DNA from: Sandaracinaceae bacterium
Lineage (GTDB): Bacteria > Myxococcota_A > Polyangia > Polyangiales > Sandaracinaceae
Assembly (NCBI GenBank): GCA_050186575.1
Contig: JBFWYI010000006.1
Coordinates: 35,130-99,129 of the forward strand
Direction: 5' to 3'
DNA: 64,000 bases
The notes under the pieces were generated by a model. That model was given only the letters and a program-made list of their open reading frames with translations, had not been told where the DNA came from and searched no databases. The position numbers were made by a program, and so were the translations under genes. Shown here in pieces: positions 3,881 through 62,860 of the stretch. Position 1 is the stretch's first letter. Every line of letters begins with the position of its first letter.

Positions 3881-3953
3881 GGGCGGATAGCTCAGTTGGT
3901 AGAGCGCCGGTTTTACACACCGGTGGTCGTCGGTTCGAGCCCGGCTCCGCCCA
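3881..3953 (+). tRNA. tRNA-Val (anticodon TAC)
   Basis: The cloverleaf was read manually. Acceptor GGGCGGA pairs with TCCGCCC; the D-arm is GCTC/GAGC. The anticodon stem CCGGT/ACCGG carries loop TTTACAC. The T-loop is TTCGAGC and the discriminator is A. No CCA is encoded. Confidence 0.85.
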
Positions 3954-3990
3954 CTCCGAGAGCCCACTCCGAGAGCCCACTCCGAGAGCC
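3949..3990 (+). repeat. Perfect 13-bp tandem repeat 'CCCACTCCGAGAG' x3 (plus a partial copy) that begins inside the 3' end of tRNA-Val
   Basis: Read directly: ...ccgcCCACTCCGAGAGCCCACTCCGAGAGCCCACTCCGAGAGCCCACC. Confidence 0.75.
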
Positions 3991-4167
3991 CACCGCGACC
4001 CCGCCGGAACCGCGCGGCGATGGTTGAAAAGTGTGTGACTCCGGCCGTCTGCCTTGCGCGGGGTGCCGAGTCGCCCTACGAAGCGGGCGCTGTCCGAAGG
4101 TCGGCCAGCCCCGGAAACCGCACCTCCGATGTCGAGCCACGCCCGAACGACCCCGGCGCGCCGCCCG

Positions 4168-6997: not shown

Positions 6998-9900
6998 GCG
7001 GGCCCGAGCCGACCGGCGGGAACGACCCCGCCGCCGACGAGCGCGGCGCGGGCGCGCACGGCGGCGACGAGCGCGGCGCGGGCGCGCACGGCGCCGACGA
7101 GCACGGCGCCGACGAGCATGGCGCCGACGAGCATGGCGCCGACGAGCACGGCGCGGACGAGCAGGGCGGCGCGCCGGGGGTCTTCGCCGGCCCGCTCGCG
7201 TGGATGGCGAAGAACTCGGTCGCCGCCAACGTGCTCATGCTCCTGCTCATCATCGGGGGCCTCTTCTCGATCACTAGGATCAAGCAAGAGGTCTTCCCCG
7301 AGTTCGATCTCGACATGATCGTGATCAACGTGCCCTACCCCGGCGCGTCGCCCGAGGAGGTCGAGCAGGGCGTGATCCTCCCCATCGAGGAGTCGGTCCG
7401 CGCGATCGACGGGATCAGCGAGGTGCGCTCCACCGCGTCCGAGGGCGTGGGCGTCGTGGTGATGGAGCTCCTGGTCGGCGAGGACCCTGACCGCGTGCTC
7501 GCGGACGTGAAGAGCGCGGTCGACCGCATCACGAGCTTCCCTACCGACGTCGAAGAGCCGGTGGTGAGCCGGCCCCAGTTCCGCGGCGAGGTCATCTCCG
7601 TCGTCATCTACGGGGACGCGAGCGAGGCGGCGCTCCGCACACTCGGAGAGCGGACGCGCGACGGGCTGCTCGACGACGATGGGATCACCACCGTCGAGCT
7701 GAGCGGCGTCCGACCGCTCGAGATCGCGATCGATATCCCGCAAGATAACCTGCGTGCCTACGGCATGTCGCACAGCGACGTAGCCAACGCGATCCGCGCG
7801 GCGTCGCTCGACGTCCCGGCCGGCAACCTCCGCACCGCGGCCGGCGAGGTGCTGCTGCGCACCACGGAGCGCCGCGAGATCGGCGCCGAGTTCGAGAACA
7901 TCGTCGTGCGAATGCAGCCCGACGGGTCGCGCGTGACGGTCGGGGACCTCGGCGAGGTGACCGACGGCTTCCGCGAGGTCGACACGGCGGCGTCCTACGA
8001 GGGACAGCGCGCGGTGATGGTCAACGTGTTCCGGGTGGGCAACCAGACCCCGCTCGACATCGCGGCCAAGGTCCAAGACTACATCGCGGCGCACGAGGCG
8101 GACCTCCCGCCCGGCGTGCACTTCGCCACGTGGAACGACCGCTCGGAGTTCTATCGCGGCCGCATCGATCTGCTCGTCCGCAACGCGTACCTCGGGCTCA
8201 TCCTCGTCCTCGTGTGCCTCGGGCTGTTCCTCGAGATCCGACTCGCGTTCTGGGTGACGCTCGGCATCCCGATCTCGTTCATCGGCTCGCTCATCTTCCT
8301 GCCGACGATCGAGGGCGCGTCGATCAACATGATCTCGCTCTTCGCGTTCATCCTCACCCTAGGGATGGTCGTCGACGACGCGATCGTGGTCGGCGAGGCG
8401 GTCTACACGCGCCGCACCAAGGGCGTGCCCGCGATGCGCGCCGCGATCGAGGGCGTCAAGGAGGTTGGCGGCCCCGTCGTCTTCGCGATCCTCACGACCT
8501 GCATCTTCTTCATCCCGCTCCTCCTCGTGCCGGGCGTGATGGGGAAGTTCTTCATGCAGATCCCGATCGTCGTGATCCTGGTGCTGCTCCTCTCGCTCGG
8601 CGAGTCGCTCCTCGTCCTGCCCTCGCACCTCGGCCACCTCGACGCGACCAAGTGGTGGATCTGGGGGATCGTGGTGCTCAACGGCGCCTCGATCCCGGTC
8701 GTGTATCGCTTCAAGGGCGAGGTCTACTTCGCGCAGCTCTTCATCGAGGGCGTCTGCGTGCTCCTCCTGATCGCCGTGTACTGGAAGCCGGTGCACGCGG
8801 CGCAGCAGCGAGTCAGCCGCCTCATCGAGTGGTTGATCCAGAAGACCTACGCGCCGGTCCTCTCGCGCGCGGTCCGCAGCCGCTACATCACACTCGCGGC
8901 CGCGGTCGCGCTGTTCATCGGCGGCATCGGCATCGTCGCGGGCGGCCGCGTCGAGTGGGAGTTCTTCCCGAAGATCGACAGCGACATCGTGTCGGCGCGC
9001 ATCACCATGCCGTTCGGTACGCCGGCCGCGGTGACCGAGCAGGTGCAGCGACGCGCGCTGGACGCCTCGCACGCGGCGATCGCTCGACTGCAGCCGGACA
9101 CCGGCGAGTCGGTGGTGCGCGGGCGCTTCGCGCTGCTCGGGAGCTTCGGCGCGGCGGGCGGCGGGCCCGGGGGCAGCAACTCCGCGTCGGGCGGTCACGT
9201 CGCCGAGGTCGCGATGTTCCTCCAGCCTTCGGATCAGCGGGCATTCAGCGCACGCCAACTTGCGGAGACCTGGCGCGAGATCCTCGGCGACGTGCCGGGC
9301 GTCGAGTCGCTCCAGTTCCAGTCCGACACCGGCGGCCCGAGCGGATCCGACATCGACTTCCAGCTCAGCCACCCCGATCTTCCGACGCTCGAGCGCGCCG
9401 CCGCGGTGCTCGCCGACCGCCTGCGCGAGTACTCGGGCGTCCGCGAGATCAACGACGGCTTCGCCGAAGGCAAGGAGCAGCTCGACTTCGAGCTCCGGCC
9501 CGAGGCGCGCGCCCGCGGGATCACCGAGCAGATGCTCGCGCGTCAGCTCCGCGACGCGTTCTTCGGCGCCGAAGCGGTCCGCCAGCAGCGCGGTCGCGAC
9601 GAGCTGCGGGTCTACGTGCGGCGACCGCTCTCGGAGCGACAGTCGTTGGCCGACGTCGAGAGCATGCTGATCCGCACGCCGGACGGCGGCGAGATCCCGC
9701 TCAGCGAGGCGGCGGTGATCACGCGCGGCCGGAGCTACACGCAGATCCAGCGGCTGGACGGACGCCGCCGCGTCAACGTGACGGCCGGGGTCGACTTCGG
9801 CACGAACGCGAACCGCGTGCAGGGCGAGGTGCAGGAACAGGTGATCCCCGACCTGCTTCGGCAGTTCCCGAACCTGCGCGTCGAAGCGGGAGGCAACGCG

Positions 9901-35922: not shown

Positions 35923-36929
35923 ACACGAACGCCCGATCCGTCGCCGAGCGCGAGCACCTGGCCCACCCACGCGATCGCGTACGCTGGCGCGAGCGCGGGC
36001 TCCTCGCGCGTCGTCCCCGCGTCGAGGTCGTGCACGCGGAGCGCGGCCGAGTCGAGCGTGAGGAGCCGCGATCCCCGAGCCACCAGCGCCTCGCCGCCGG
36101 CCATCGACGGAAGCTCGTCGAGCGTCGCGAGATCGAACACCCGGACCCCGTCGACTGTACCGAGGAAGCCTCGATCCGCGTACACCGCGAGCGCGCCATG
36201 GCCCGCCCGTGGGCTGAGCGGCATCCTCACGATCGGCATCGCCGCCGTTGGATCGCTCACGTCGACGACGGTGAGCGTGTCGTCGGCGTCGGGGTCCACG
36301 TCGGCGACGAGCGCCACCGCGCCGTCCGTCGCGATCCGCACCGGGTGCTTGCCGGTCACGTCGACGGTGGACAGCGACGCGAGGCCCGACAGATCCGTGA
36401 TGCGATGCGCCTCGAACACGTTGATGCGCGCGGCGCTCGGGTGCCGGTACGCGTAGAGCGTGTCGCCGAACCCGGCGACCGTCGCCTGCCCCGAGACGTC
36501 GACCCACGCGGTCTCCTCGAGCCCGGCGTCGTTCGAGAGCACGCGGAGCGCGCTCCCGTCGTACACCGCGATCACGCCCCCCGTCGCGAGCACCTGCAGG
36601 ACGGGCACGGGCGCCTCGCGAGCGGTGAAGTCCGCGAGCGCGATGACGCGCAGCGCGCTCGGGCTCCCGACGTAGATCGAGTCCGCGTCGAGCGCGAGCG
36701 AGGTGACGCCGTCGGGGATCGGCAACACCGCGCGCAACGTCACACACGCGCTCCCCGCGTCCTCGCCGCCCGCATCGAGGCTTGCGGCATCGATCCCCGA
36801 GTCGGCGGCGCCGGCATCGCTCGCGCCGGCATCGCGCGCGCCGGCATCGCGCGCGCCGGCGTCGGTCGCAGGATCCCTCTGACACGCCAGGGCGAGCACG
36901 AGCACGAGGGGGATCGGCCAGCGGCCCAT
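35904..36929 (-). CDS. Lipoprotein with beta-propeller-like (LVIVD/YVTN-type) repeats and N-terminal 'DAGARDAG' low-complexity linker
   Basis: Lipobox 'LALACQ'. Repeated '...V.VYD...' blades are present. The 'DAGARDAGARDAGASDAGAADSG' linker is typical of myxobacterial secreted proteins. Confidence 0.6.
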   Translation of the reverse strand: MGRWPIPLVLVLALACQRDPATDAGARDAGARDAGASDAGAADSGIDAASLDAGGEDAGSACVTLRAVLPIPDGVTSLALDADSIYVGSPSALRVIALADFTAREAPVPVLQVLATGGVIAVYDGSALRVLSNDAGLEETAWVDVSGQATVAGFGDTLYAYRHPSAARINVFEAHRITDLSGLASLSTVDVTGKHPVRIATDGAVALVADVDPDADDTLTVVDVSDPTAAMPIVRMPLSPRAGHGALAVYADRGFLGTVDGVRVFDLATLDELPSMAGGEALVARGSRLLTLDSAALRVHDLDAGTTREEPALAPAYAIAWVGQVLALGDGSGVRVYDVCF

Positions 36930-38167: not shown

Positions 38168-39070
38168 TCACGCGGTGTCTCGCGCGTAACGGCGCGGCGG
38201 CTGGCCGACGTGCCGAGTGAACGCGGTGCTGAAGGCGCTGGCCGAGCCGTAGCCCACCTTCTCCGCCACCTCGGCGAGCCCGGCGTCGGATCGACGCAAG
38301 AGATCTTTCGCCACCGCCATGCGCCACGTGAGCAGATACTCCATCGGCGAGAGCCCGACGCTCCGCGTGAACCGCTCGAAGAACGCGGAACGGGACAGCG
38401 CGGCCGTCTTGGCGAGCTCCGCGACCGTCCACGGTCGCGCGAGCTGCGCGTGCATGCTGCGCATCGCCGGCGCGATCCGATCGTCGGCGAGGCCGCGCAA
38501 GAGACCTGGCGGGGCGTCGTCGCCCGAGTTCGCGCGCAGCGCCTCCACCAGCAACACATCGATGAGCCGACTCAAGACGAGCTCGCGCCCCGCGCGGCGC
38601 TCGAGCGACTCTTCGCCGACCCACCGCACCAGCTCGCTCAGGCGCGCGGCGTCGCGCACGTGCACCAACGCCGGCAGGAGCGGGACGAGCAGCGCCGCGT
38701 CGGGCGAGTCGAACACGAAGTAACCGCCGAGCAGCCGCACGTCGGGGCGTCCGCCGCGCCGGCCGTGCCGGACCTCGCGAGCCGGGAACGTCCTGGCGCC
38801 CTTGGGGTGGAGCTCGACCGGCGTGGCTGGCTCGAACCCCGACATCGTGAACGCGGGCGTCGCGGGCAAGAGCACGAAGTCCCCTCGCTCCATCACGATC
38901 GGGCGCTGCCCGTCGACGGCGAGCCGGCAGCGACCGTCCAGCACGGCGCAGAAGCTCGGCTCCCCGAAGTCGGAGTACCGGACCGCCCACGGTCCGGCGC
39001 CGGTGATGCCCTTCGCGAACACGGCGCGCGGCTGCAGCAACCCGATGACCTCGGACAGTGGATCGGTCAT
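38168..39070 (-). CDS. AraC family transcriptional regulator (cupin-like N-terminal domain + HTH_AraC)
   Basis: The C-terminal tandem HTH 'WTVAELAKTAALSRSAFFERFTRSVGLSPMEYLLTWRMAVAKDLL...VAEKVGYGSASAFSTAFTRHVGQPP' is present. Confidence 0.8.
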   Translation of the reverse strand: MTDPLSEVIGLLQPRAVFAKGITGAGPWAVRYSDFGEPSFCAVLDGRCRLAVDGQRPIVMERGDFVLLPATPAFTMSGFEPATPVELHPKGARTFPAREVRHGRRGGRPDVRLLGGYFVFDSPDAALLVPLLPALVHVRDAARLSELVRWVGEESLERRAGRELVLSRLIDVLLVEALRANSGDDAPPGLLRGLADDRIAPAMRSMHAQLARPWTVAELAKTAALSRSAFFERFTRSVGLSPMEYLLTWRMAVAKDLLRRSDAGLAEVAEKVGYGSASAFSTAFTRHVGQPPRRYARDTA

Positions 39071-39165
39071 CCCTGGACTCCCTCGAATGAAATGCGGACT
39101 GCGTATGATAGATCGTCCGGCACGAGGGGACCATGGTGTCTCTCGACCACTCGAGAGGAGGATCC

Positions 39166-39909
39166 ATGAAGACCGTGCTCATCACCGGCTGCTCGTCGGG
39201 CTATGGACTGGAGACCGCGCGCTACTTCCACGCTCACGGCTGGAACGTCATCGCGACGATGCGCACCCCGACGGAGGACGCCCTCCCGAAGAGCGACTCC
39301 CTCCGCGTCGTGCCGCTCGACGTCACGAAGGAGGACAGCATCGCGGCGGCCCTCGAAGCGAGCGGCCCGCTCGACGCCGTCGTCAACAACGCGGGCATCG
39401 GCGCGGCAGGCGCGTTCGAGGCGACCCCGATGTCCACCGTGCGCGAGGTCTTCGAGACGAACACGTTCGGCGTGATGGCGGTGACCCAGGCCGTCATCCC
39501 GGCCATGCGCGAGCGCGGGTCCGGCGCGATCGTAAACGTCACGTCGAGCGTCACGTTCGCCCGTATGCCGCTCGTCAGCGTGTACGCCGCCAGCAAGCAC
39601 GCGATCGAGGGCTTCACCGCGTCCGTCGCGCTCGAGCTCGCGGAGCACGGCGTCCGAGCCAAGCTCGTCGAGCCGGGTTACGGGCCGGGGACGCGGTTCA
39701 CCGCCAACACCGGCACGCGCCTCGAGGGGACGATCCCGCCCGCCTACGCGTCGGTCGCGGCGCGCGCGTTCGGCTCGATCGGCCAGCGCGCCGAGGTGAC
39801 GCAGGCGAGCGACGTGGCCGAGGCGGTGTGGCGCGCCGTGCACGACACGACCGGTCAGCTCCGGTTCCCCGCGGGGGCCGACGCGATCGCGCTCTCGCAA
39901 GCCCGGTAG
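39166..39909 (+). CDS. Short-chain dehydrogenase/reductase (SDR)
   Basis: 'VLITGCSSGYGLETA' (TGxxxGxG), 'NNAG' and the catalytic 'YAASKHAIEGF' (YxxxK) are present. RBS GAGAGGAGG precedes the ATG. It is divergent from the AraC gene. Confidence 0.85.
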   Translation: MKTVLITGCSSGYGLETARYFHAHGWNVIATMRTPTEDALPKSDSLRVVPLDVTKEDSIAAALEASGPLDAVVNNAGIGAAGAFEATPMSTVREVFETNTFGVMAVTQAVIPAMRERGSGAIVNVTSSVTFARMPLVSVYAASKHAIEGFTASVALELAEHGVRAKLVEPGYGPGTRFTANTGTRLEGTIPPAYASVAARAFGSIGQRAEVTQASDVAEAVWRAVHDTTGQLRFPAGADAIALSQAR

Positions 39910-39913
39910 ACGG

Positions 39914-40849
39914 TCAGCGGATCTTCGTGAACAGCGGCGGCGCGAGCGGCTGCTGATCTGGCGACCCCTCGCGCGCGACGCGCAACGCCTCGTGCACCTG
40001 GCGCCGGATCATCTCGGCGAGCGAGCGCGTCGGCAGATCGTTGCAGTCGATGCCGAACGGGTTCTCGAGCTCGGCGGCCAGCACGTCGACCGCCGCGAGG
40101 ACGAAGAACGCCACCATCGCGATCGGGATCGCGCTCCATCCGAGATCGGCGTGCAGGCCGAGCGGTACGAGCAGCGCGAAGAGGAGGAGGAAGCCGCGGA
40201 TCACCGCCGTGAGCGCGAACGGGATCGGCGTGTTGCGGATCCGCTCGCACGCTCCGAGGACATCGAGCAGCGCCGCCGCGTGCGGCTGGAGCAGCAGGAG
40301 GCGCCCCGTGTCGAGCGTGCCGCGCGCGTTTCGTTCCGTCACCTCGCGCCACACCAGCTCGCTGACGTAGCTGAGCGGATGCGTGCGACTCGCCGCGTGC
40401 GCGCGCTCGTCGTCGGCGAGCGACTCCAGGTCCTTCGCGGTCAGCTCACCACGCAGGTGGAGCGAGAGACCGACCACGAAGTCACCGACCAGACCGGCCA
40501 TCCGGCGACGGCCGGTCGCGTCGTCCGCGTCCCACATCGCGTGGACGAGGTTCGCGAGGTTGCGGCAGTGATTGACGAGCAGCCCCCAGTGCTGTCGCCC
40601 TTCCCACCAGCGCGCGTACGCGTTGTTGATCCGAAACGCGAGCCCGAGGCTCACCGTGCCTCCGACGACGCTCAGCGCGGCGGCGCCGTGCGGGAGCTCG
40701 ACGCGGAACGCGAGCTCGAGGGCGCTCACCAAACACGCGGCGTAGACGCCCATCAGCACGGTCCCCATGAGCGCGCGACGCAGGGCATAGCTGATCGGCA
40801 GACGGACGATGTCGGTCCACCAGTGAGGATGTGGCTCGTAGCGGATCAT
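39914..40849 (-). CDS. Bestrophin / UPF0187 (YneE) family anion-channel-like membrane protein
   Basis: The conserved 'AYARWWEGRQHW' region and a four-TM topology are present. Confidence 0.7.
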   Translation of the reverse strand: MIRYEPHPHWWTDIVRLPISYALRRALMGTVLMGVYAACLVSALELAFRVELPHGAAALSVVGGTVSLGLAFRINNAYARWWEGRQHWGLLVNHCRNLANLVHAMWDADDATGRRRMAGLVGDFVVGLSLHLRGELTAKDLESLADDERAHAASRTHPLSYVSELVWREVTERNARGTLDTGRLLLLQPHAAALLDVLGACERIRNTPIPFALTAVIRGFLLLFALLVPLGLHADLGWSAIPIAMVAFFVLAAVDVLAAELENPFGIDCNDLPTRSLAEMIRRQVHEALRVAREGSPDQQPLAPPLFTKIR

Positions 40850-40898
40850 CGGAGCGCGGTAGAGTAGCCCGCGCCGAAGGCCAACGAAGGAGCGATCG

Positions 40899-41168
40899 AT
40901 GAGCGACGACGTGTGCGAGCACCTTTCCGCGATCGAGTCGATCCGACTCCCCGACGAGCGCGTGTGCGTCGACTGCGTACCGATCGGCGGGCGGTGGGTG
41001 CACCTCCGGACCTGCCAGACCTGTGGGCTCACGCGCTGCTGCGACAGCTCGCCGAATCGCCACGCGAGCGGGCATGCAAGAGAGAGCGGGCACCCCGTCG
41101 TCGCCTCCGCGGAGCCGAACGAGCGCTGGCTCTGGTGCTACGTCGACGAGGCCGCCGCGGAGTACTGA
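40899..41168 (+). CDS. UBP-type zinc-finger domain protein (about 89 aa)
   Basis: The 'CEHL...C.DC...GRWVHLRTCQTCGLTRCCDSSPNRHASGHARESGHP' Cys/His pattern is that of zf-UBP. RBS GAAGGAG precedes the ATG. Confidence 0.65.
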   Translation: MSDDVCEHLSAIESIRLPDERVCVDCVPIGGRWVHLRTCQTCGLTRCCDSSPNRHASGHARESGHPVVASAEPNERWLWCYVDEAAAEY

Positions 41169-42862
41169 CGCGCCGCCGCCGCGCGCCGCTCGAGCAACGC
41201 GAGGCGTCGGTGGATCGCGTGGACGACCACCGAGCCCTCCCCGACCGCCGACGCCACGCGCTTCACCGATCCGGATCGCACGTCGCCCACCGCGTAGACG
41301 CCGGGTTGGCTCGTCGCGAACGGCGACAGCTCGCGGTCCTCGTCCTCGAACCGACCGGTGAACACGAAGCCGTGCTCGTCGAGCTCCACGCACCCGGCGA
41401 GCCAGGCCGTGTTGGGCTCCGCCCCGATCATCACGAACAGCTGTGACACCGGGCGCGTCTCCTCATCGCCGGACTTGCTCCTCCACGTCACCGAGCGCAG
41501 CCACGCGTCGCCGTCGAGCGCGGTGATCTCCGTCTCCGTCCGCACCACGATCCGCTTGGACACGCGGATCCGATCGACGAGGTAGCTCGACATGCTCGCC
41601 TCGAGCGACGCCCCGCGCACGATCATGTGGACGCGCACCGCGTGGCGCGCGAGGAAGATCGCCGCCTGCCCGGCCGAGTTGCCGGCTCCGACGACCGCCA
41701 CTTCTCTTCCATCGCACAGCTGGGCCTCCATCGCGGTCGCCGCGTACTCGATGCCCTGCCCCTCGAACCGATCGAAGTTGGGCAGATCGAGCTTGCGGTA
41801 CCGCGCCCCCGTCGCGACCACCACCGTGCGCGCGTGCGCGACGCGCTCGTCGTCGAGCCGGATCCGAAACGTCGGACCGCTGCAGTCGAGCGAGCTCACG
41901 TGGCGCGACACCGCGAGCCGCGCGCCGAACTTCTGCGCCTGCACCTGCGCGCGACCGGCCAGCGCCTGCCCCGAGATCCCCGTCGGGAACCCCAGGTAGT
42001 TCTCGATCTTCGAGCTCGTCCCCGCTTGCCCGCCCGGCGCGTGTCCCTCCACGACGAGCGTGTCGAGCCCCTCGCTCGCCGCGTAGACCGCGGCGGCGAG
42101 CCCGGCCGGACCGGCGCCCACGACGACGACCTCGTAGACGTGCTCCTCGTCGAGCGGCTCGGTCAGCCCGAGCGCGTCGGCGAGCGCCCCGTTGCTCGGG
42201 TTCTCGATCACCTGGTGGTCGTGCGCGACGACCACGGGGAGGTGCGCGAGCTCGAGATCGAAGCACGGCTGGAAGTGACGCCCCTCCTCGCTGTCGAGAT
42301 CGATGAGCCGATGCGGGTAGCCGTTGCGCAAGAGGAAGCGCTCGATGCGCAGCGTGTCCGCGTTGGCCATCGATCCGATGAGCAGCGCCGCCCCCTGCGA
42401 GTAGCGGATCAACCCCACGCGCCGGAGGATGAACGCGCGGACGATGATCTCGCAGACGTCCGGCTCGGCCGCGAGCATCCGTCGAAAGCTCGCGTGCGGG
42501 ATCCGGAGCACGCGCACGTCGCCGCGGGCGCGACCGCTCACCAGGATCCGCCGGTCGTTGAAGAGATCGAGCTCACCGGTGAAGCCGAGGGCGTCGTGCG
42601 TGAACACGACCGACTCTTCGCCCGCGAGCGCCTCGTCGAGGATCTCGACGTGCCCCTCGACCACCACGAAGAAGTCCGGGCTCCGATCGCCGCGCCGGAA
42701 GAGGTACGCGCCGTCGCGCAACGACTCTTCCGCACCGTGCACCGCGAGCCGCTCGACCATCTCGGGCGTGAGGTGCGGGAACGTCTGCTCCACGCGGGCC
42801 GCCGGCTCGCTCGGGTCCAGGTCTTCGGGGCGCGCGGACGGTCGGTGCGAAGGGTCGGTCAT
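41138..42862 (-). CDS. Cyclic-nucleotide-binding domain fused to a thioredoxin-reductase-like FAD/NAD(P) flavoprotein; the canonical CxxC redox pair is replaced by a single Cys
   Basis: N-terminal cNMP fold ('LFRRGDRSPDFFVVVEGHVEIL...'). Then 'VVVVGAGPAGLAAAVYA' (FAD GxGxxG) and 'VAVVGAGNSAGQAAIFL' (NAD(P)H GxGxxG). At the position of the TrxR 'CATCDG' the sequence is 'AMEAQLCDG'. Confidence 0.8.
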   Translation of the reverse strand: MTDPSHRPSARPEDLDPSEPAARVEQTFPHLTPEMVERLAVHGAEESLRDGAYLFRRGDRSPDFFVVVEGHVEILDEALAGEESVVFTHDALGFTGELDLFNDRRILVSGRARGDVRVLRIPHASFRRMLAAEPDVCEIIVRAFILRRVGLIRYSQGAALLIGSMANADTLRIERFLLRNGYPHRLIDLDSEEGRHFQPCFDLELAHLPVVVAHDHQVIENPSNGALADALGLTEPLDEEHVYEVVVVGAGPAGLAAAVYAASEGLDTLVVEGHAPGGQAGTSSKIENYLGFPTGISGQALAGRAQVQAQKFGARLAVSRHVSSLDCSGPTFRIRLDDERVAHARTVVVATGARYRKLDLPNFDRFEGQGIEYAATAMEAQLCDGREVAVVGAGNSAGQAAIFLARHAVRVHMIVRGASLEASMSSYLVDRIRVSKRIVVRTETEITALDGDAWLRSVTWRSKSGDEETRPVSQLFVMIGAEPNTAWLAGCVELDEHGFVFTGRFEDEDRELSPFATSQPGVYAVGDVRSGSVKRVASAVGEGSVVVHAIHRRLALLERRAAAARQYSAAASST

Positions 42863-42904: not shown

Positions 42905-43492
42905 TCAGCTCGGCACTGTGACGGTACGCGGCTCGCCGTCCGGGTGGCCGCAGCGCACCGTGACGACCGCGCCGCGACCGAGCGGATGGGCCTCGAGCAC
43001 CGGCGCGAGCGTCGACCACGTCGCCTCGGCGTCGAGCGAGTACACATAGAACGCCAGCTTGCCCTCCTTCAGCACGTGGGGCCCGCGCAGGTCGAGCTCC
43101 TCGCCCGCCGCCTCCTCGATCGCCTCGATGAGCGCGTCGAACACCTCCGTCTCGGGCACCGACGCGAGCTCGATCTCCACGCCCTCCGCCACGCCGAACG
43201 AGTACACGAGCTCCTCCTCGCCGCGCGGCACGATGAGCTCCGAGCGCTTGGGCATCCCGCACTGCGAGAGGAACCCCATCACCTCGCCGAACACCTCGTC
43301 GTCGTCGTCGAGCTCGAGCTCGATGTCGATGTGCTCGATGCGTCCGCCCTCCTTGAGTTGCGTCCCTCCGCCGTGCACCGTCCCGCGATCGCCCAGCCGC
43401 TCCATCAGCGGGTCCTCGTATCGCTCCCCGCGATCGATCGGCAGGATCGACTCCCACGCCCTCACCAGCGCGAACACGCGTGCCTCGCTCAT
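42905..43492 (-). CDS. Hypothetical acidic protein (195 aa)
   Basis: Balanced, Glu-rich ORF with no recognisable motifs. Confidence 0.45.
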   Translation of the reverse strand: MSEARVFALVRAWESILPIDRGERYEDPLMERLGDRGTVHGGGTQLKEGGRIEHIDIELELDDDDEVFGEVMGFLSQCGMPKRSELIVPRGEEELVYSFGVAEGVEIELASVPETEVFDALIEAIEEAAGEELDLRGPHVLKEGKLAFYVYSLDAEATWSTLAPVLEAHPLGRGAVVTVRCGHPDGEPRTVTVPS

Positions 43493-57901: not shown

Positions 57902-57927
57902 GCGAGCGCGATTCCGATTCCGAATAG

Positions 57928-57968
57928 TCCGAGTCCGAGTCCGAGTCCGAGTCCGAGTCCGAGTCCGA
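57928..57968. repeat. Hexanucleotide microsatellite (GAGTCC)6-7 flanked by GATTCC half-repeats
   Basis: Read directly between the convergent stops of the GDPD (57901) and VanW (57995) genes. Confidence 0.85.
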
Positions 57969-57994
57969 TTATTCCGATTCCGAGTCCGATCCGC

Positions 57995-62244: not shown

Positions 62245-62429
62245 GGTCTCGTCTCCCGCTTTGACGACCGGCATTTCCGACCAACAAACCGTACAAAAGG
62301 ATTTCTGACGCCAATCCCCAGCAAACGCAAGCCAAATTCGCTTGCATTGCCGAGTGATTCAGTCGGGAATCTGCCCGCACGGGCGACTTGACGGCCCCCC
62401 GAACGCGGGCTAATTGCGCCCTCCGCGAT

Positions 62430-62500
62430 TCGGGGATCGTCCAACGGCAGGACTCCAGTTTCTGGTACTGGCTATCTAGGTTCGAATCCTAGTCCCCGAG
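62430..62500 (+). tRNA. tRNA-Gln (anticodon CTG)
   Basis: Acceptor TCGGGGA/TCCCCGA and D-arm GTCC/GGAC. Anticodon stem CCAGT/ACTGG carries loop TTCTGGT. The T-loop is TTCGAAT and the discriminator is G. Confidence 0.8.
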
Positions 62501-62569
62501 TGGGCGACTCGCGTCTGCCGCAGTCGTCTCGGTTCCTGGCTCGCTCCGTTCCTTCGCTCGGTTCGCTCT

Positions 62570-62641
62570 GGCCCCATCGTCTAGTGGTTAGGACATCGGC
62601 CTCTCACGCCGGTAACAGGGGTTCAAATCCCCTTGGGGTCA
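62570..62641 (+). tRNA. tRNA-Glu (anticodon CTC)
   Basis: Acceptor GGCCCCA/TGGGGTC and D-arm GTCT/GGAC. Anticodon stem TCGGC/GCCGG carries loop CTCTCAC. The T-loop is TTCAAAT and the discriminator is A. Confidence 0.8.
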
Positions 62642-62650
62642 CTCGTCGCT

Positions 62651-62860
62651 CCCGCAGCTCGCTCCGGACCCGCCGCTTCGCGGGAGGGTCCTTTGCTCCC
62701 CGCTCGGACCATCCCGCGGCTCGCTCCGGACCCGCCGCTTCGCGGGAGGGTCCTTTGCTCCCCGCTCGGACCATCCCGCGGCTCGCTCCGGACCCGCCGC
62801 TTCGCGGGAGGGTCCTTTGCTCCCCGCTCGGACATCCCGCAGCTCGCTCCGGACCCGTGG
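62651..62860. repeat. 62-bp tandem repeat, about 3.4 nearly identical copies, each with an internal hairpin (GACCCGCCGCTTCGCGGGAGGGTC)
   Basis: Copies at 62651-62712, 62713-62774 and 62775-62835 (the third lacks 1 nt), with a partial fourth copy. The unit is 'CCCGCRGCTCGCTCCGGACCCGCCGCTTCGCGGGAGGGTCCTTTGCTCCCCGCTCGGACCAT'. It is not CRISPR: there are no unique spacers. Confidence 0.85.

What the first reader, a model, noticed from the sequence alone, without database searches (positions are those of the whole stretch)
39914..42862. cNMP-binding TrxR-like flavoprotein lacking the CxxC redox pair, flanked by a UBP-type zinc-finger protein and a bestrophin-family channel
The 574-aa protein joins a CRP-like cyclic-nucleotide-binding fold to a complete two-dinucleotide-fold thioredoxin-reductase scaffold. 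Where TrxR has 'CATCDG', this sequence reads 'AMEAQLCDG', a single Cys. It is therefore unlikely to reduce thioredoxin by the classical dithiol mechanism. It may be a cNMP-gated ferredoxin/flavodoxin-NADP reductase-type enzyme.

It is convergent with, and overlaps by 31 nt, an 89-aa zf-UBP protein. That gene is divergent from a bestrophin (anion channel) gene. The clustering suggests a cAMP/cGMP-responsive redox or ion-homeostasis module.
Basis: partly seen in the sequence, partly recalled or inferred. Interest (0 to 1): 0.55.

Follow-up and report, generated by a model that had tools for sequence, protein, structure and literature searches.

The report
CxxC-less sensor flavoprotein with zinc-finger partner
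This gene encodes a widespread thioredoxin-reductase-like flavoenzyme that is fused to a signal-sensing domain, has lost both classical redox cysteines across its whole family, and is repeatedly encoded next to a small three-zinc "UBP" finger protein, so its usual label "thioredoxin reductase" is probably wrong and its true job is still unknown.

Summary
The genes are real and sit where stated: a 574-aa flavoprotein (41138-42862, -), an 89-aa ZnF-UBP protein (40899-41168, +, 31-nt 3' overlap) and a bestrophin whose true extent is 39914-40849 (-).

The cysteine detail is wrong. TrxR's C-A-T-C aligns to A374-A-T-A377, so both redox cysteines are absent. The "LCDG" cysteine (C383) lies six residues downstream and is not homologous to either.

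This is a family trait. In 105 relatives (39-65% identity, bacteria and archaea) neither CxxC position is ever Cys. E379 is conserved in 105/105 and C383 in 103/105.

The sensor domain is swappable: some relatives carry a receiver (REC) domain instead of the cyclic-nucleotide-binding (CNB) domain.

The ZnF-UBP link is strongly conserved in both directions and in four gene orders, across Myxococcota, Alphaproteobacteria, Acidobacteriota and Actinomycetota. The bestrophin link is not: 1 of 166 loci.

Best reading: a signal-gated NAD(P)H/FAD oxidoreductase using single-cysteine (Glu379/Cys383) chemistry on a protein partner, most likely ZnF-UBP and/or thioredoxin. It is neither a classical TrxR nor a TrxR-type FNR. 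I rate it a new variant of a known kind with an unresolved mechanism.

The parts
41138..42862 (-). 574-aa three-domain flavoprotein: CNB sensor, Grx-like fold, TrxR-like FAD/NAD(P)H module. It is 100% identical to a protein of a Sandaracinaceae MAG.
42470..42727 (-). Cyclic-nucleotide-binding (CRP-type) domain, res 46-131. The following helix 'RAFILRRVGLI' (res ~134-152) is the likely dimer/transducer helix.
   Evidence: Pfam PF00027 at 57.9 bits vs cut-off 27.5; PDB CNB matches; helix 134-148 in the AF2 model
42527..42583 (-). Phosphate-binding cassette 'FTGELDLFNDRRILVSGRA' (res 94-112). G96-E97 are kept, the canonical Arg column is I106, and the conserved Arg is R104.
   Evidence: AF2 pLDDT <50 for res 97-104
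42158..42394 (-). Glutaredoxin/mycoredoxin-like fold (res 157-235, beta-alpha-beta-alpha-beta-beta-alpha). There is no CxxC, and the cis-Pro (P209) and the 'NPS' motif are kept.
   Evidence: AF2 secondary structure; profile hit to mycoredoxin-1 2LQO, E 1e-3; AhpF as the top Foldseek hit with 433 aligned columns; weak Pfam Glutaredoxin hit in homologue L098; translation
41198..42136 (-). Low-Mr TrxR-like FAD and NAD(P)H two-Rossmann module (res 243-555)
   Evidence: Pyr_redox_2 covering 1-291/291; TrxR structures at E 3e-46; Foldseek TMt 0.82 to FR-state TrxRs
41714..41746 (-). Motif Y373-A-A-T-A-M-E379-A-Q-L-C383, which replaces TrxR 'xCATCDGxxx'. E379 is conserved in 105/105 and C383 in 103/105. 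Positions 374 and 377 are never Cys.
40899..41168 (+). 89-aa stand-alone ZnF-UBP protein. It has three predicted Zn sites (C6/H8/C80/D83; C23/C26/C48/H55; C39/C42/H59/H65) plus an extra invariant C47. It is the conserved partner gene.
   Evidence: synteny
39914..40849 (-). Bestrophin_2 family membrane protein (311 aa, start at M62 of the long ORF). It is a lineage-specific neighbour and not part of the conserved module.

Best explanation
The 574-aa protein belongs to a very large, strongly conserved family of signal-regulated NAD(P)H/FAD oxidoreductases. The family architecture is an input domain (CNB here, a REC receiver in some relatives), then a redox-dead glutaredoxin-like fold, then a low-Mr TrxR-like catalytic module.

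SHOWN:
- Both dinucleotide sites are intact.
- The TrxR CxxC is replaced family-wide by [A/G]-A-T-x.
- A Glu (E379) at or next to the position of TrxR's acid-base Asp, and a Cys one helical turn later (C383), are invariant.
- Only one of the three NADPH 2'-phosphate arginines is kept.
- The gene is linked across phyla to a three-zinc ZnF-UBP gene.

INFERRED:
- Electrons pass NAD(P)H -> FAD -> a mixed disulfide on Cys383. This is a single-cysteine mechanism of the CoA-disulfide-reductase / YpdA type, with Glu379 as acid-base.
- The thiol or disulfide partner is a protein, most likely the co-encoded ZnF-UBP (extra invariant Cys47 beside a Zn ligand) and/or a thioredoxin.
- The Cys-less Grx fold serves as the docking module.
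- The N-terminal sensor gates turnover through its C-helix, acting on the FO/FR domain rotation of the dimer.
- The bestrophin is only a local neighbour.
For: Domains and scaffold.

Loss of CxxC and gain of E...C in 105 relatives at 39-65% identity, from Proteobacteria, Acidobacteriota, Myxococcota, Actinomycetota, Cyanobium, Verrucomicrobia, Parachlamydiaceae and Nitrososphaerales.

Strong purifying selection on GGQAGTSSKIENYLGFPTGISG, GGGNSAGQAA, R416 and M424-S425 argues for a working enzyme.

Grx fold.

Input-domain swap to REC with the same E...C motif, still beside zf-UBP. REC-TrxB regulators are listed in a census (PMC9953108).

zf-UBP linkage:
- 14/80 genome loci carry zf-UBP within 6 kb, 10 of them within 0.5 kb, in four orientations.
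- 20 of 66 zf-UBP-centred metagenome loci have the flavoprotein gene ending <=120 nt upstream on the same strand.
- In Rhodococcus and Nocardia plasmids, trxA - zf-UBP - flavoprotein are operonic with a 23-nt overlap. A Rhizobium plasmid carries the pair too.
- The closest relative, L043, has the pair in the opposite relative orientation yet still adjacent.

A protein of the same architecture (ATII-TrxR: 552 aa, CNB plus TrxB) binds FAD, uses NADH and NADPH with similar Km, and reduces DTNB and thioredoxin in vitro (PMC6544261). That fits a single-Cys disulfide reductase and the loss of two 2'-phosphate arginines.

The AF2 model resembles FR-state TrxRs such as the TrxR-Trx complex 1F6M, where the former disulfide site is at the partner-docking surface.
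Against: - No coordinates were available, so the distance from Cys383 to the flavin is unknown. By alignment it lies 5-6 residues beyond the flavin-proximal Cys of TrxR.
- Most family members (66/80 genome loci) have no zf-UBP within 6 kb, so ZnF-UBP cannot be an obligatory substrate encoded in cis.
- Thioredoxin is adjacent only in Actinomycetota and two other loci.
- Family membership of ATII-TrxR, and its lack of a CxxC, were inferred from the paper's description and not from its sequence. Its published Cys numbering does not map cleanly onto the Cupriavidus paralogue I could read.
- Ligand binding by the CNB domain is unproven.
Confidence: 0.4

Rival explanations
1. It is an ordinary NADPH-dependent thioredoxin-disulfide reductase with an added regulatory domain, as most databases and one paper label it.
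For: [quoted passage not shown]
- The best NCBIfam hit is TIGR01292.
- ATII-TrxR is reported to reduce thioredoxin (PMC6544261).
- trxA lies upstream in actinobacterial operons.
Against: - The defining CxxC is absent in 105/105 members.
- The score of 233 bits is below the 343-bit equivalog cut-off.
- Two of the three NADPH-specifying arginines are lost.
- The ATII paper never examined the active-site cysteines and misfiled the enzyme as a high-Mr TrxR.
Confidence: 0.1
2. This is the first reader's idea: a TrxR-type ferredoxin/flavodoxin-NADP+ reductase-like electron transferase. It would pass single electrons from NAD(P)H to a metal centre, possibly an iron-loaded ZnF-UBP acting like a rubredoxin.
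For: - TrxR-type FNRs also lack the CxxC (established knowledge), and FNR structures are matched, though weakly.
- The partner protein is Cys/His-rich with CxxC knuckles.
Against: - Similarity to FNR-type enzymes is about 27 orders of magnitude weaker than to true TrxRs.
- There is no C-terminal extension to stack on the flavin. Family proteins end 3-6 residues after the last TrxR helix.
- An invariant Glu/Cys pair sits at the old disulfide site.
- The ligand sets of ZnF-UBP match the three zinc sites of HDAC6-type fingers and the solved bacterial homologue 2IDA.
Confidence: 0.15
3. The flavoprotein is mainly a sensor or switch rather than a bulk enzyme. Its NAD(P)H/FAD redox state, combined with cNMP or phosphorylation input, controls binding to ZnF-UBP. 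ZnF-UBP in turn regulates membrane transporters or channels, here the divergent bestrophin. This is an ion-homeostasis module.
For: - zf-UBP domains of this type are fused to the C-termini of Na+/H+ exchangers (P0355, P0376), an LPG_synthase_TM protein, and MFS and TerC fragments.
- Bestrophin is divergent from zf-UBP, 49 nt away, in the window and in L043.
- Both classical redox centres are lost.
- The input domain is swappable, as in signalling proteins.
Against: - Bestrophin is present in only 1 of 166 related loci.
- No transporter recurs next to the pair.
- Catalytic motifs for both nucleotides are nearly invariant.
- A protein of the same architecture (ATII-TrxR) turns over at several per second in vitro.
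Confidence: 0.15
4. The three genes are neighbours by chance and share no function.
For: The convergent arrangement with overlapping 3' ends means the flavoprotein and zf-UBP are not co-transcribed in this window.
Against: Reciprocal enrichment far exceeds chance. About 0.2 zf-UBP genes would be expected in 960 kb of flanks if there is one copy per 5-Mb genome, and 14 were seen. The pair occurs in four phyla and four orientations.
Confidence: 0.03

Closest known systems
ATII-TrxR from the Atlantis II brine pool (Badiea et al. 2019, PMC6544261)
   Same: It has the same architecture and size: 552 aa, an N-terminal CNB/Crp domain and a C-terminal TrxB module. It binds FAD, uses NADH as well as NADPH, and reduces DTNB.
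   Different: - It is about 46% identical at most, judged from the Cupriavidus relative I could read.
- The authors call it a high-Mr TrxR and do not address the missing CxxC, the Grx-like domain or any partner.
- I could not check its sequence directly.
Low-Mr thioredoxin reductase (E. coli TrxB; PDB 1F6M, 1TDE)
   Same: It shares the two-Rossmann FAD/NAD(P)H fold at 30-34% identity (E 1e-38 to 1e-46). The GGQ...T...EN..GFP and GGGNSA motifs are kept, and an acidic residue sits at or next to the Asp139 position.
   Different: - There is no CxxC.
- There is a new invariant Cys383.
- Only one of R176/R177/R181 is kept.
- There are two extra N-terminal domains.
AhpF (PDB 1HYU) and NTRC: TrxR modules fused to thioredoxin-fold domains
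   Same: A thioredoxin-superfamily fold is fused to a TrxR module. AhpF is the top Foldseek hit with the longest alignment.
   Different: AhpF and NTRC keep both CxxC centres and shuttle electrons between them. Here both are gone, and the Trx-fold is a single Grx/mycoredoxin-like unit.
Single-cysteine flavoprotein disulfide reductases: CoA-disulfide reductase, and YpdA/Bdr, which has the TrxR fold (from established knowledge, not tested here)
   Same: They are NAD(P)H/FAD enzymes that work without a CxxC. YpdA matches weakly (TIGR04018, E 2e-20).
   Different: CoADR belongs to the GR-type fold. The conserved Cys of YpdA is in the FAD domain, not at the old disulfide site. Neither has sensor or Grx-like domains.
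TrxR-type ferredoxin-NADP+ reductases (B. subtilis YumC 3LZW, C. tepidum 3AB1)
   Same: They have the TrxR fold without a CxxC.
   Different: Similarity is much weaker. This family has no C-terminal flavin-stacking extension and has the invariant Glu/Cys motif.
RPA1320 of Rhodopseudomonas palustris (PDB 2IDA) and the HDAC6/USP ZnF-UBP domains
   Same: The partner protein is a clear homologue of 2IDA (E 1.5e-28, TM 0.73). It shares the three-zinc ZnF-UBP fold of HDAC6.
   Different: 2IDA has no assigned function. The Arg-Tyr pair that clamps ubiquitin's C-terminal Gly-Gly in HDAC6 is Ser50-Ser51 here, and an extra invariant Cys47 is inserted.
REC-TrxB response regulators (census class, PMC9953108)
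   Same: They carry a homologous Grx-like plus TrxR-like output module with the same E...C motif, and are also found beside zf-UBP.
   Different: Their input is a phospho-receiver domain rather than a CNB domain. They too are uncharacterised.

Membership tests
Low-Mr thioredoxin-disulfide reductase (TrxB, TIGR01292) | FAD (GxGxxG) and NAD(P)H (GxGxxA) two-Rossmann scaffold | tested here: met
   Pyr_redox_2 covers 1-291/291. TrxR structures match at E 3e-46. GAGPAG and GGGNSAGQA are invariant in 105 members.
Low-Mr thioredoxin-disulfide reductase (TrxB, TIGR01292) | Redox-active CxxC (CATC) in the NADPH domain | tested here: not met
   It aligns to A374-A-T-A377. Positions 374 and 377 are never Cys in 105 members.
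Low-Mr thioredoxin-disulfide reductase (TrxB, TIGR01292) | Score at or above the curated equivalog cut-off | tested here: not met
   233.2 bits against a cut-off of 343.45.
Low-Mr thioredoxin-disulfide reductase (TrxB, TIGR01292) | NADPH 2'-phosphate arginine cluster (HRRxxxR) | tested here: not met
   The sequence is 'VRGASLEA'. Only R416 (the R176 equivalent) is kept, and it is invariant. The R177 and R181 positions are G/S and A/S/G/T.
Low-Mr thioredoxin-disulfide reductase (TrxB, TIGR01292) | Catalyses NADPH-dependent reduction of thioredoxin | not testable with these tools
   Only a literature report exists, for a protein of the same architecture (PMC6544261).
TrxR-type ferredoxin-NADP+ reductase | C-terminal extension carrying the aromatic residue that stacks on the flavin (established knowledge) | tested here: not met
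   Family members end 3-6 residues after the last TrxR helix ('...VHQVLxE', '...IHRFLNPGVA').
TrxR-type ferredoxin-NADP+ reductase | Closer to FNR-type than to disulfide-reductase-type members | tested here: not met
   FNRs match at E 3.5e-19 to 1e-12, and TrxRs at 3e-46.
AhpF-type fusion (Trx-fold domain plus TrxR module) | Thioredoxin-superfamily fold N-terminal to the TrxR module | tested here: met
   Secondary structure is beta-alpha-beta-alpha-beta-beta-alpha. AhpF is the top Foldseek hit. The profile hits mycoredoxin-1. Homologue L098 gives a weak Pfam Glutaredoxin hit.
AhpF-type fusion (Trx-fold domain plus TrxR module) | CxxC centres in both the Trx-fold and the TrxR module | tested here: not met
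   The Grx-site reads 'GSMANADT' here, with consensus 'GPGHxADT'. The TrxR site reads AATA.
Cyclic-nucleotide-binding domain (PF00027) | Pfam match above the gathering score | tested here: met
   57.9 bits against 27.5.
Cyclic-nucleotide-binding domain (PF00027) | Phosphate-binding cassette with Gly-Glu ... Arg in canonical register | tested here: inconclusive
   G96 (101/103) and E97 (95/103, otherwise Asp) are kept. In ungapped alignments the canonical Arg column is I106 (I/S/A/V across the family). The conserved Arg is R104, and the Glu-to-Arg spacing is 6 instead of 8-9. AF2 confidence is low here.
Cyclic-nucleotide-binding domain (PF00027) | Binds cAMP, cGMP or another cNMP | not testable with these tools
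   This needs ITC or DSF measurements, or a structure.
ZnF-UBP (PF02148) | Pfam match, three Zn-ligand sets and the fold | tested here: met
   37.3 bits against 22.7. Cys and His ligands are invariant. 2IDA matches at E 1.5e-28, and the HDAC6 fold is matched.
ZnF-UBP (PF02148) | Arg-Tyr pair that binds the free C-terminal Gly-Gly of ubiquitin (HDAC6 R1155/Y1156; residue numbers from memory) | tested here: not met
   The aligned residues are S50-S51. D49, S51 and P52 are invariant.
   The 311-aa bestrophin finds a homologue only in L043 among 166 loci.

The most novel reading that the evidence does not exclude
The flavoprotein and the ZnF-UBP protein form a dedicated, second-messenger- or phosphorylation-gated two-protein redox relay. 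In this reading it is a 'split' disulfide-reductase system, distinct from the Trx, Grx and AhpF systems.

The enzyme would contribute NAD(P)H/FAD plus one cysteine. The prokaryotic ZnF-UBP finger would contribute the second thiol or the docking pocket, and would carry the signal on to targets such as membrane transporters.

This would give the first function for bacterial ZnF-UBP proteins. It would also hint at what this domain did before eukaryotes used it to read ubiquitin tails.
Probability: 0.2. Interest if true: 0.75.

Novelty: new variant of a known kind. Interest (0 to 1): 0.55.

Why it matters
Thousands of database entries across bacteria and some archaea are labelled "thioredoxin reductase (NADPH)" or "thioredoxin-disulfide reductase" although the whole family lacks the residues that define that enzyme. 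The one biochemical paper on a protein of this architecture did not address this.

The family is conserved at 45-65% identity between phyla, which implies an important but unknown activity. It is wired to signalling inputs (CNB or REC).

Its conserved pairing with a bacterial ZnF-UBP protein gives a concrete, testable handle on two orphan families at once. ZnF-UBP is a domain otherwise known for binding ubiquitin C-termini in eukaryotes.

If the single-cysteine mechanism holds, it would extend the known catalytic repertoire of the TrxR fold.

Tried and rejected
Rejected on spacing, on retention of the A-T pair and on three HMMER alignments.
- **Bestrophin as a module member.** Rejected. The apparent 'bestrophin' hits in many zf-UBP loci were the antisense strand of zf-UBP, matched by the spurious N-terminal extension of the long ORF.
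- **Unbiased clustering of flanking ORFs around 80 flavoprotein loci.** It found no other specific recurrent neighbour, only generic SDRs, LuxR-type regulators and histidine kinases. A large second cluster around the zf-UBP loci was an antisense-ORF artefact.
- **Thioredoxin as a general neighbour.** Found only in Rhodococcus/Nocardia plus two other loci.
- **Adenylate/guanylate cyclase next to zf-UBP (4 loci).** The four are ~90% identical to each other, so this is one lineage and weak evidence. No similar cyclase is in the window.
- **A conserved flavoprotein C-terminal tail as a ZnF-UBP ligand.** No conserved tail exists.
- **Mapping the ATII-TrxR cysteine numbers onto the Cupriavidus chromid paralogue.** Only the 17-residue spacing of the first pair fits.
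- **The upstream 195-aa ORF (42905-43492).** It has no Pfam hit and no homologue in any related locus.
- **Anti-phage defence libraries.** Only sub-threshold CNB-domain hits.
- **Rfam.** Only tRNAs in the window.
- **Literature searches.** Nothing was found on the flavoprotein/ZnF-UBP pairing, nor under the NCBI product name.

Full report
**What is in the window**

The region is about 71% G+C. The 574-aa product of 41138..42862(-) is 100% identical to a protein of a Sandaracinaceae MAG (Myxococcota).

Pfam gives the following:
- cNMP_binding at res 46-131 (E 1e-15) and Pyr_redox_2 at res 243-543 (full-length model, E 6e-39) for the 574-aa protein.
- zf-UBP (E 3e-9) for the 89-aa product of 40899..41168(+).
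- Bestrophin_2 (E 2e-58) for the ORF ending at 39914(-).

The 3' ends of the flavoprotein and zf-UBP genes overlap by 31 nt (41138-41168).

The bestrophin ORF as listed (372 aa) is too long. Its first ~61 codons are the antisense strand of the zf-UBP gene; they match zf-UBP genes of unrelated loci. Independent gene calling gives 311 aa. The gene is therefore 39914..40849, with a 49-nt divergent spacer and a GAAGGAG ribosome-binding site before the zf-UBP ATG.

Further out lie an SDR and an AraC/cupin regulator. Upstream of the flavoprotein is a 195-aa ORF with no family match and no homologue in related loci.

**The cysteine question**

HMMER alignments to solved TrxRs put C-A-T/I-C opposite A374-A375-T376-A377. 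The templates were Chlamydomonas NTRC 7P9D/7P9E, M. smegmatis 5UTH, and others at E 1e-38 to 3e-46.

The span from the GxG before the motif to the GxGxxA after it is 24 residues here and 23 in E. coli TrxB. The A-T of CATC is retained.

So the protein has no cysteine at either redox position. C383 lies six residues beyond the second one. An acidic residue, E379, sits at or next to the position of the TrxR acid-base Asp.

NCBIfam's TrxR equivalog model scores 233 bits against a cut-off of 343.

**It is a family trait, not decay**

The protein search hit its ceiling of 8000 clusters at E<=1e-20. The top 120 are 61-66% identical and about 558 aa long. A species-level genome scan found at least 596 loci. 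These come from Alpha-, Beta- and Gammaproteobacteria, Myxococcota, Acidobacteriota, Cyanobium, Verrucomicrobia, Parachlamydiaceae, Bacteriovoracaceae and Nitrososphaerales archaea. Plasmids and chromids add Actinomycetota and Deinococcus.

In an alignment of 105 members at 39-65% identity:
- Position 374 is A/G/S/W and position 377 is A/F/P/G, never Cys.
- Y373 is conserved in 101/105, A375 in 104/105 and T376 in 99/105.
- E379 is conserved in 105/105 and C383 in 103/105.
- The FAD and NAD(P)H motifs, R416 and M424-S425 are essentially invariant.

Of the three arginines that bind the 2'-phosphate of NADPH in E. coli TrxR, only the first is retained. This much conservation of both nucleotide sites argues for an active enzyme with an altered active site.

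Residues ~157-235 are predicted as beta-alpha-beta-alpha-beta-beta-alpha. Three further lines support a glutaredoxin-type fold:
- A profile of this segment hits M. tuberculosis mycoredoxin-1 (2LQO, E 1e-3). The alignment preserves the cis-Pro ('LPVV') and 'NPS' regions but replaces the CGYC site.
- AhpF, a Trx-fold plus TrxR fusion, is the top Foldseek hit with 433 aligned columns, against ~320 for plain TrxRs.
- A homologue gives a weak Pfam Glutaredoxin hit.

The architecture is therefore sensor, then a Cys-less Grx-like fold, then a CxxC-less TrxR-like module.

**The sensor domain**

The CNB domain is well supported by Pfam (57.9 bits against a 27.5 cut-off). Its phosphate-binding cassette 'FTGELDLFNDRRILVSGRA' keeps Gly-Glu. 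In ungapped alignments to PKA and a Streptomyces CNB protein, however, the canonical Arg falls on I106, which is I/S/A/V across the family. The conserved Arg (R104, 86/103) lies two residues earlier. AF2 confidence is below 50 there. Cyclic-nucleotide binding is plausible but not shown.

Two relatives next to zf-UBP genes (L098, L118) carry a REC receiver domain instead of the CNB domain. It sits in front of the same Grx-like/TrxR-like module with the same E...C motif ('YYGAALTEAAAC'). A 'TrxB' output class of response regulators is listed in a census, without any function (PMC9953108). Input-domain swapping marks the Grx-like/TrxR-like unit as a regulated effector.

**Neighbourhood**

Starting from the flavoprotein, among 80 genome loci a zf-UBP homologue lies within 6 kb in 14 and within 0.5 kb in 10. 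The arrangements are:
- downstream on the same strand: L019, L064, L068, L079, L080;
- upstream on the same strand: L043, L063;
- divergent: L033;
- convergent: L042, L045, and the window itself.

If there is one copy per ~5-Mb genome, about 0.2 would be expected by chance.

Starting from zf-UBP, of 66 metagenome loci with at least 400 nt upstream, 20 have the flavoprotein gene ending <=120 nt upstream on the same strand. Five more have one nearby. Pfam on the immediate upstream ORFs shows Pyr_redox_2 in 18 of 68, 14 of them with cNMP_binding.

Annotated records agree:
- Rhodococcus and Nocardia plasmids carry (grpE)-dnaJ-cbpM-clpB-trxA-zfUBP-flavoprotein(-DUF1931). zf-UBP and the flavoprotein overlap by 23 nt.
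- A Rhizobium plasmid carries zfUBP followed by the flavoprotein.
- The closest relative (L043) has bestrophin, zf-UBP and the flavoprotein together, but with the flavoprotein inverted relative to the window.

By contrast, the true 311-aa bestrophin finds a homologue only in L043 among all 166 loci. No other specific neighbour recurs. Thioredoxin is adjacent only in the actinobacterial operons and two other loci.

**The partner protein**

The zf-UBP family has 2765 clusters and is mostly stand-alone at ~89 aa. Members are 60-76% identical across phyla.

It is homologous to R. palustris RPA1320, a structural-genomics NMR structure with no assigned function (2IDA, E 1.5e-28; model TM 0.73). It shares the HDAC6 ZnF-UBP fold.

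The invariant residues fit three zinc sites: C6/H8/C80/D83, C23/C26/C48/H55 and C39/C42/H59/H65. There is also an extra invariant Cys47. The site assignment is by analogy to HDAC6, from my own knowledge.

The Arg-Tyr that clamps ubiquitin's C-terminal Gly-Gly in HDAC6 aligns to Ser50-Ser51. A ubiquitin-tail-like ligand is therefore unlikely.

In an exhaustive representative search, the few long proteins carrying this domain are membrane proteins with the finger at the C-terminus: two Na+/H+ exchangers, an LPG_synthase_TM protein, and MFS and TerC fragments. Other recurrent zf-UBP neighbours are DUF5996 (10 loci immediately adjacent) and one lineage with a DUF5939-cyclase.

**What is known**

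One paper characterises 'ATII-TrxR' from a Red Sea brine pool (PMC6544261):
- It is 552 aa, with a CNB domain at res 13-146 and a TrxB module at 234-522.
- It is 87% identical to a Cupriavidus metallidurans protein.
- It binds FAD.
- It uses NADPH and NADH with similar Km (5.2 and 4.2 uM).
- It reduces DTNB (kcat 5.6 /s) and a cognate thioredoxin in the insulin assay.

The authors classify it as a high-Mr TrxR. They cite modelled 'redox centres' Cys206-Cys223 and Cys376-Cys467, none of which is a CxxC. They do not discuss the active-site motif.

I could read only a Cupriavidus chromid paralogue (L081: 'YWASPVEAKLC', no CxxC). The published numbering maps onto it only partly. ATII-TrxR's membership of this family is therefore inferred from its architecture.

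No paper was found on the ZnF-UBP pairing, nor under the NCBI product name.

**How it most likely works**

Shown:
- an intact FAD/NAD(P)H scaffold;
- loss of both classical redox centres;
- a new invariant Glu/Cys pair at the old disulfide site;
- relaxed NADPH-specifying residues;
- swappable signalling inputs;
- a conserved ZnF-UBP partner gene.

Inferred: a single-cysteine disulfide-reductase cycle, of the kind used by CoA-disulfide reductase and discussed for the TrxR-fold enzyme YpdA (established knowledge). In this cycle the Cys383 thiolate attacks a partner disulfide, and the resulting mixed disulfide is reduced by FADH2, with Glu379 as acid-base.

This scheme accommodates DTNB and, in principle, thioredoxin reduction without a CxxC. 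It also fits the dual NADH/NADPH use.

The AF2 model superposes best on FR-state TrxRs such as the TrxR-thioredoxin complex 1F6M (TMt 0.82, against ~0.64 for FO-state structures). In that state the former disulfide site is at the partner-docking surface. The Cys-less Grx fold would act as a docking module, and the sensor's C-helix would gate domain rotation.

The weakest links are the unknown Cys383-to-flavin geometry and the identity of the physiological partner. I put about 0.4 on this composite model.

The rivals are:
- FNR-like single-electron transfer (0.15);
- a mainly signalling role towards transporters via ZnF-UBP (0.15);
- a conventional TrxR (0.1);
- coincidental gene adjacency (0.03).

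**Verdict**

It is not supported on the FNR assignment or on the bestrophin.

The protein family is already present in databases, and one protein of this architecture has been assayed. What appears undescribed is:
- the family-wide CxxC-to-ExxxC replacement;
- the dead Grx-like domain;
- the CNB/REC input swap;
- the cross-phylum ZnF-UBP partnership.

I rate it a new variant of a known kind, with interest about 0.55.

Noticed in passing
window 62650-62857 (next to tRNA-Gln 62429-62501 and tRNA-Glu 62570-62642): A 62-bp unit is repeated 3.4 times at 97% identity, starting 8 nt after tRNA-Glu(ctc).
   Followed up: no
window 3949-3993: A perfect 13-bp x3.5 tandem repeat (GCCCACTCCGAGA) overlaps the 3' end of tRNA-Val(tac) at 3881-3954.
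   Followed up: no
window 7032-7168; 36808-36864; 57926-57993: Other short tandem arrays are present: 15 bp x9, 15 bp x3.8 (which reads as GIARA repeats in one frame of a long GC-rich ORF), and the hexamer AGTCCG x11.
   Followed up: no
window 40850-41032 (-): The first ~61 codons of the 372-aa 'bestrophin' ORF are antisense to the zf-UBP gene. They gave false tblastn hits inside zf-UBP genes of 23 unrelated loci, which is a trap for ORF-based annotation in high-GC DNA.
   Followed up: yes
L082 1-5629 (Rhodococcus plasmid), L083 1-7083 (Nocardia plasmid): The pair sits in a plasmid-borne proteostasis island: grpE, dnaJ-like, cbpM, clpB, a Trx2-type trxA with an N-terminal zinc ribbon, zf-UBP, the flavoprotein and DUF1931. 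This suggests a role in heat or oxidative stress.
   Followed up: partly
L098 1495-3498, L118 1797-3467: Homologues occur with a REC receiver domain in place of the CNB domain, the same E...C motif, and a zf-UBP gene nearby.
   Followed up: partly
P0355, P0376, P0333, P0387, P0382: zf-UBP domains of this bacterial type are fused to the C-termini of membrane proteins: Na+/H+ exchangers, LPG_synthase_TM, and MFS and TerC fragments.
   Followed up: partly
metagenome loci such as L094 641-1546: DUF5996 proteins are the second most frequent immediate neighbour of zf-UBP genes (8 upstream and 2 downstream among ~70 loci). Their function is unknown.
   Followed up: no
L099, L129, L147, L151: zf-UBP lies directly downstream of a DUF5939 plus class III nucleotide cyclase gene. 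The four loci are ~90% identical, so this is a single lineage.
   Followed up: partly
window 38168-39909: A divergent AraC/cupin regulator (38168-39070, -) and an SDR (39133-39909, +) form a pair. The SDR is convergent with the bestrophin and separated from it by a 4-nt gap.
   Followed up: no
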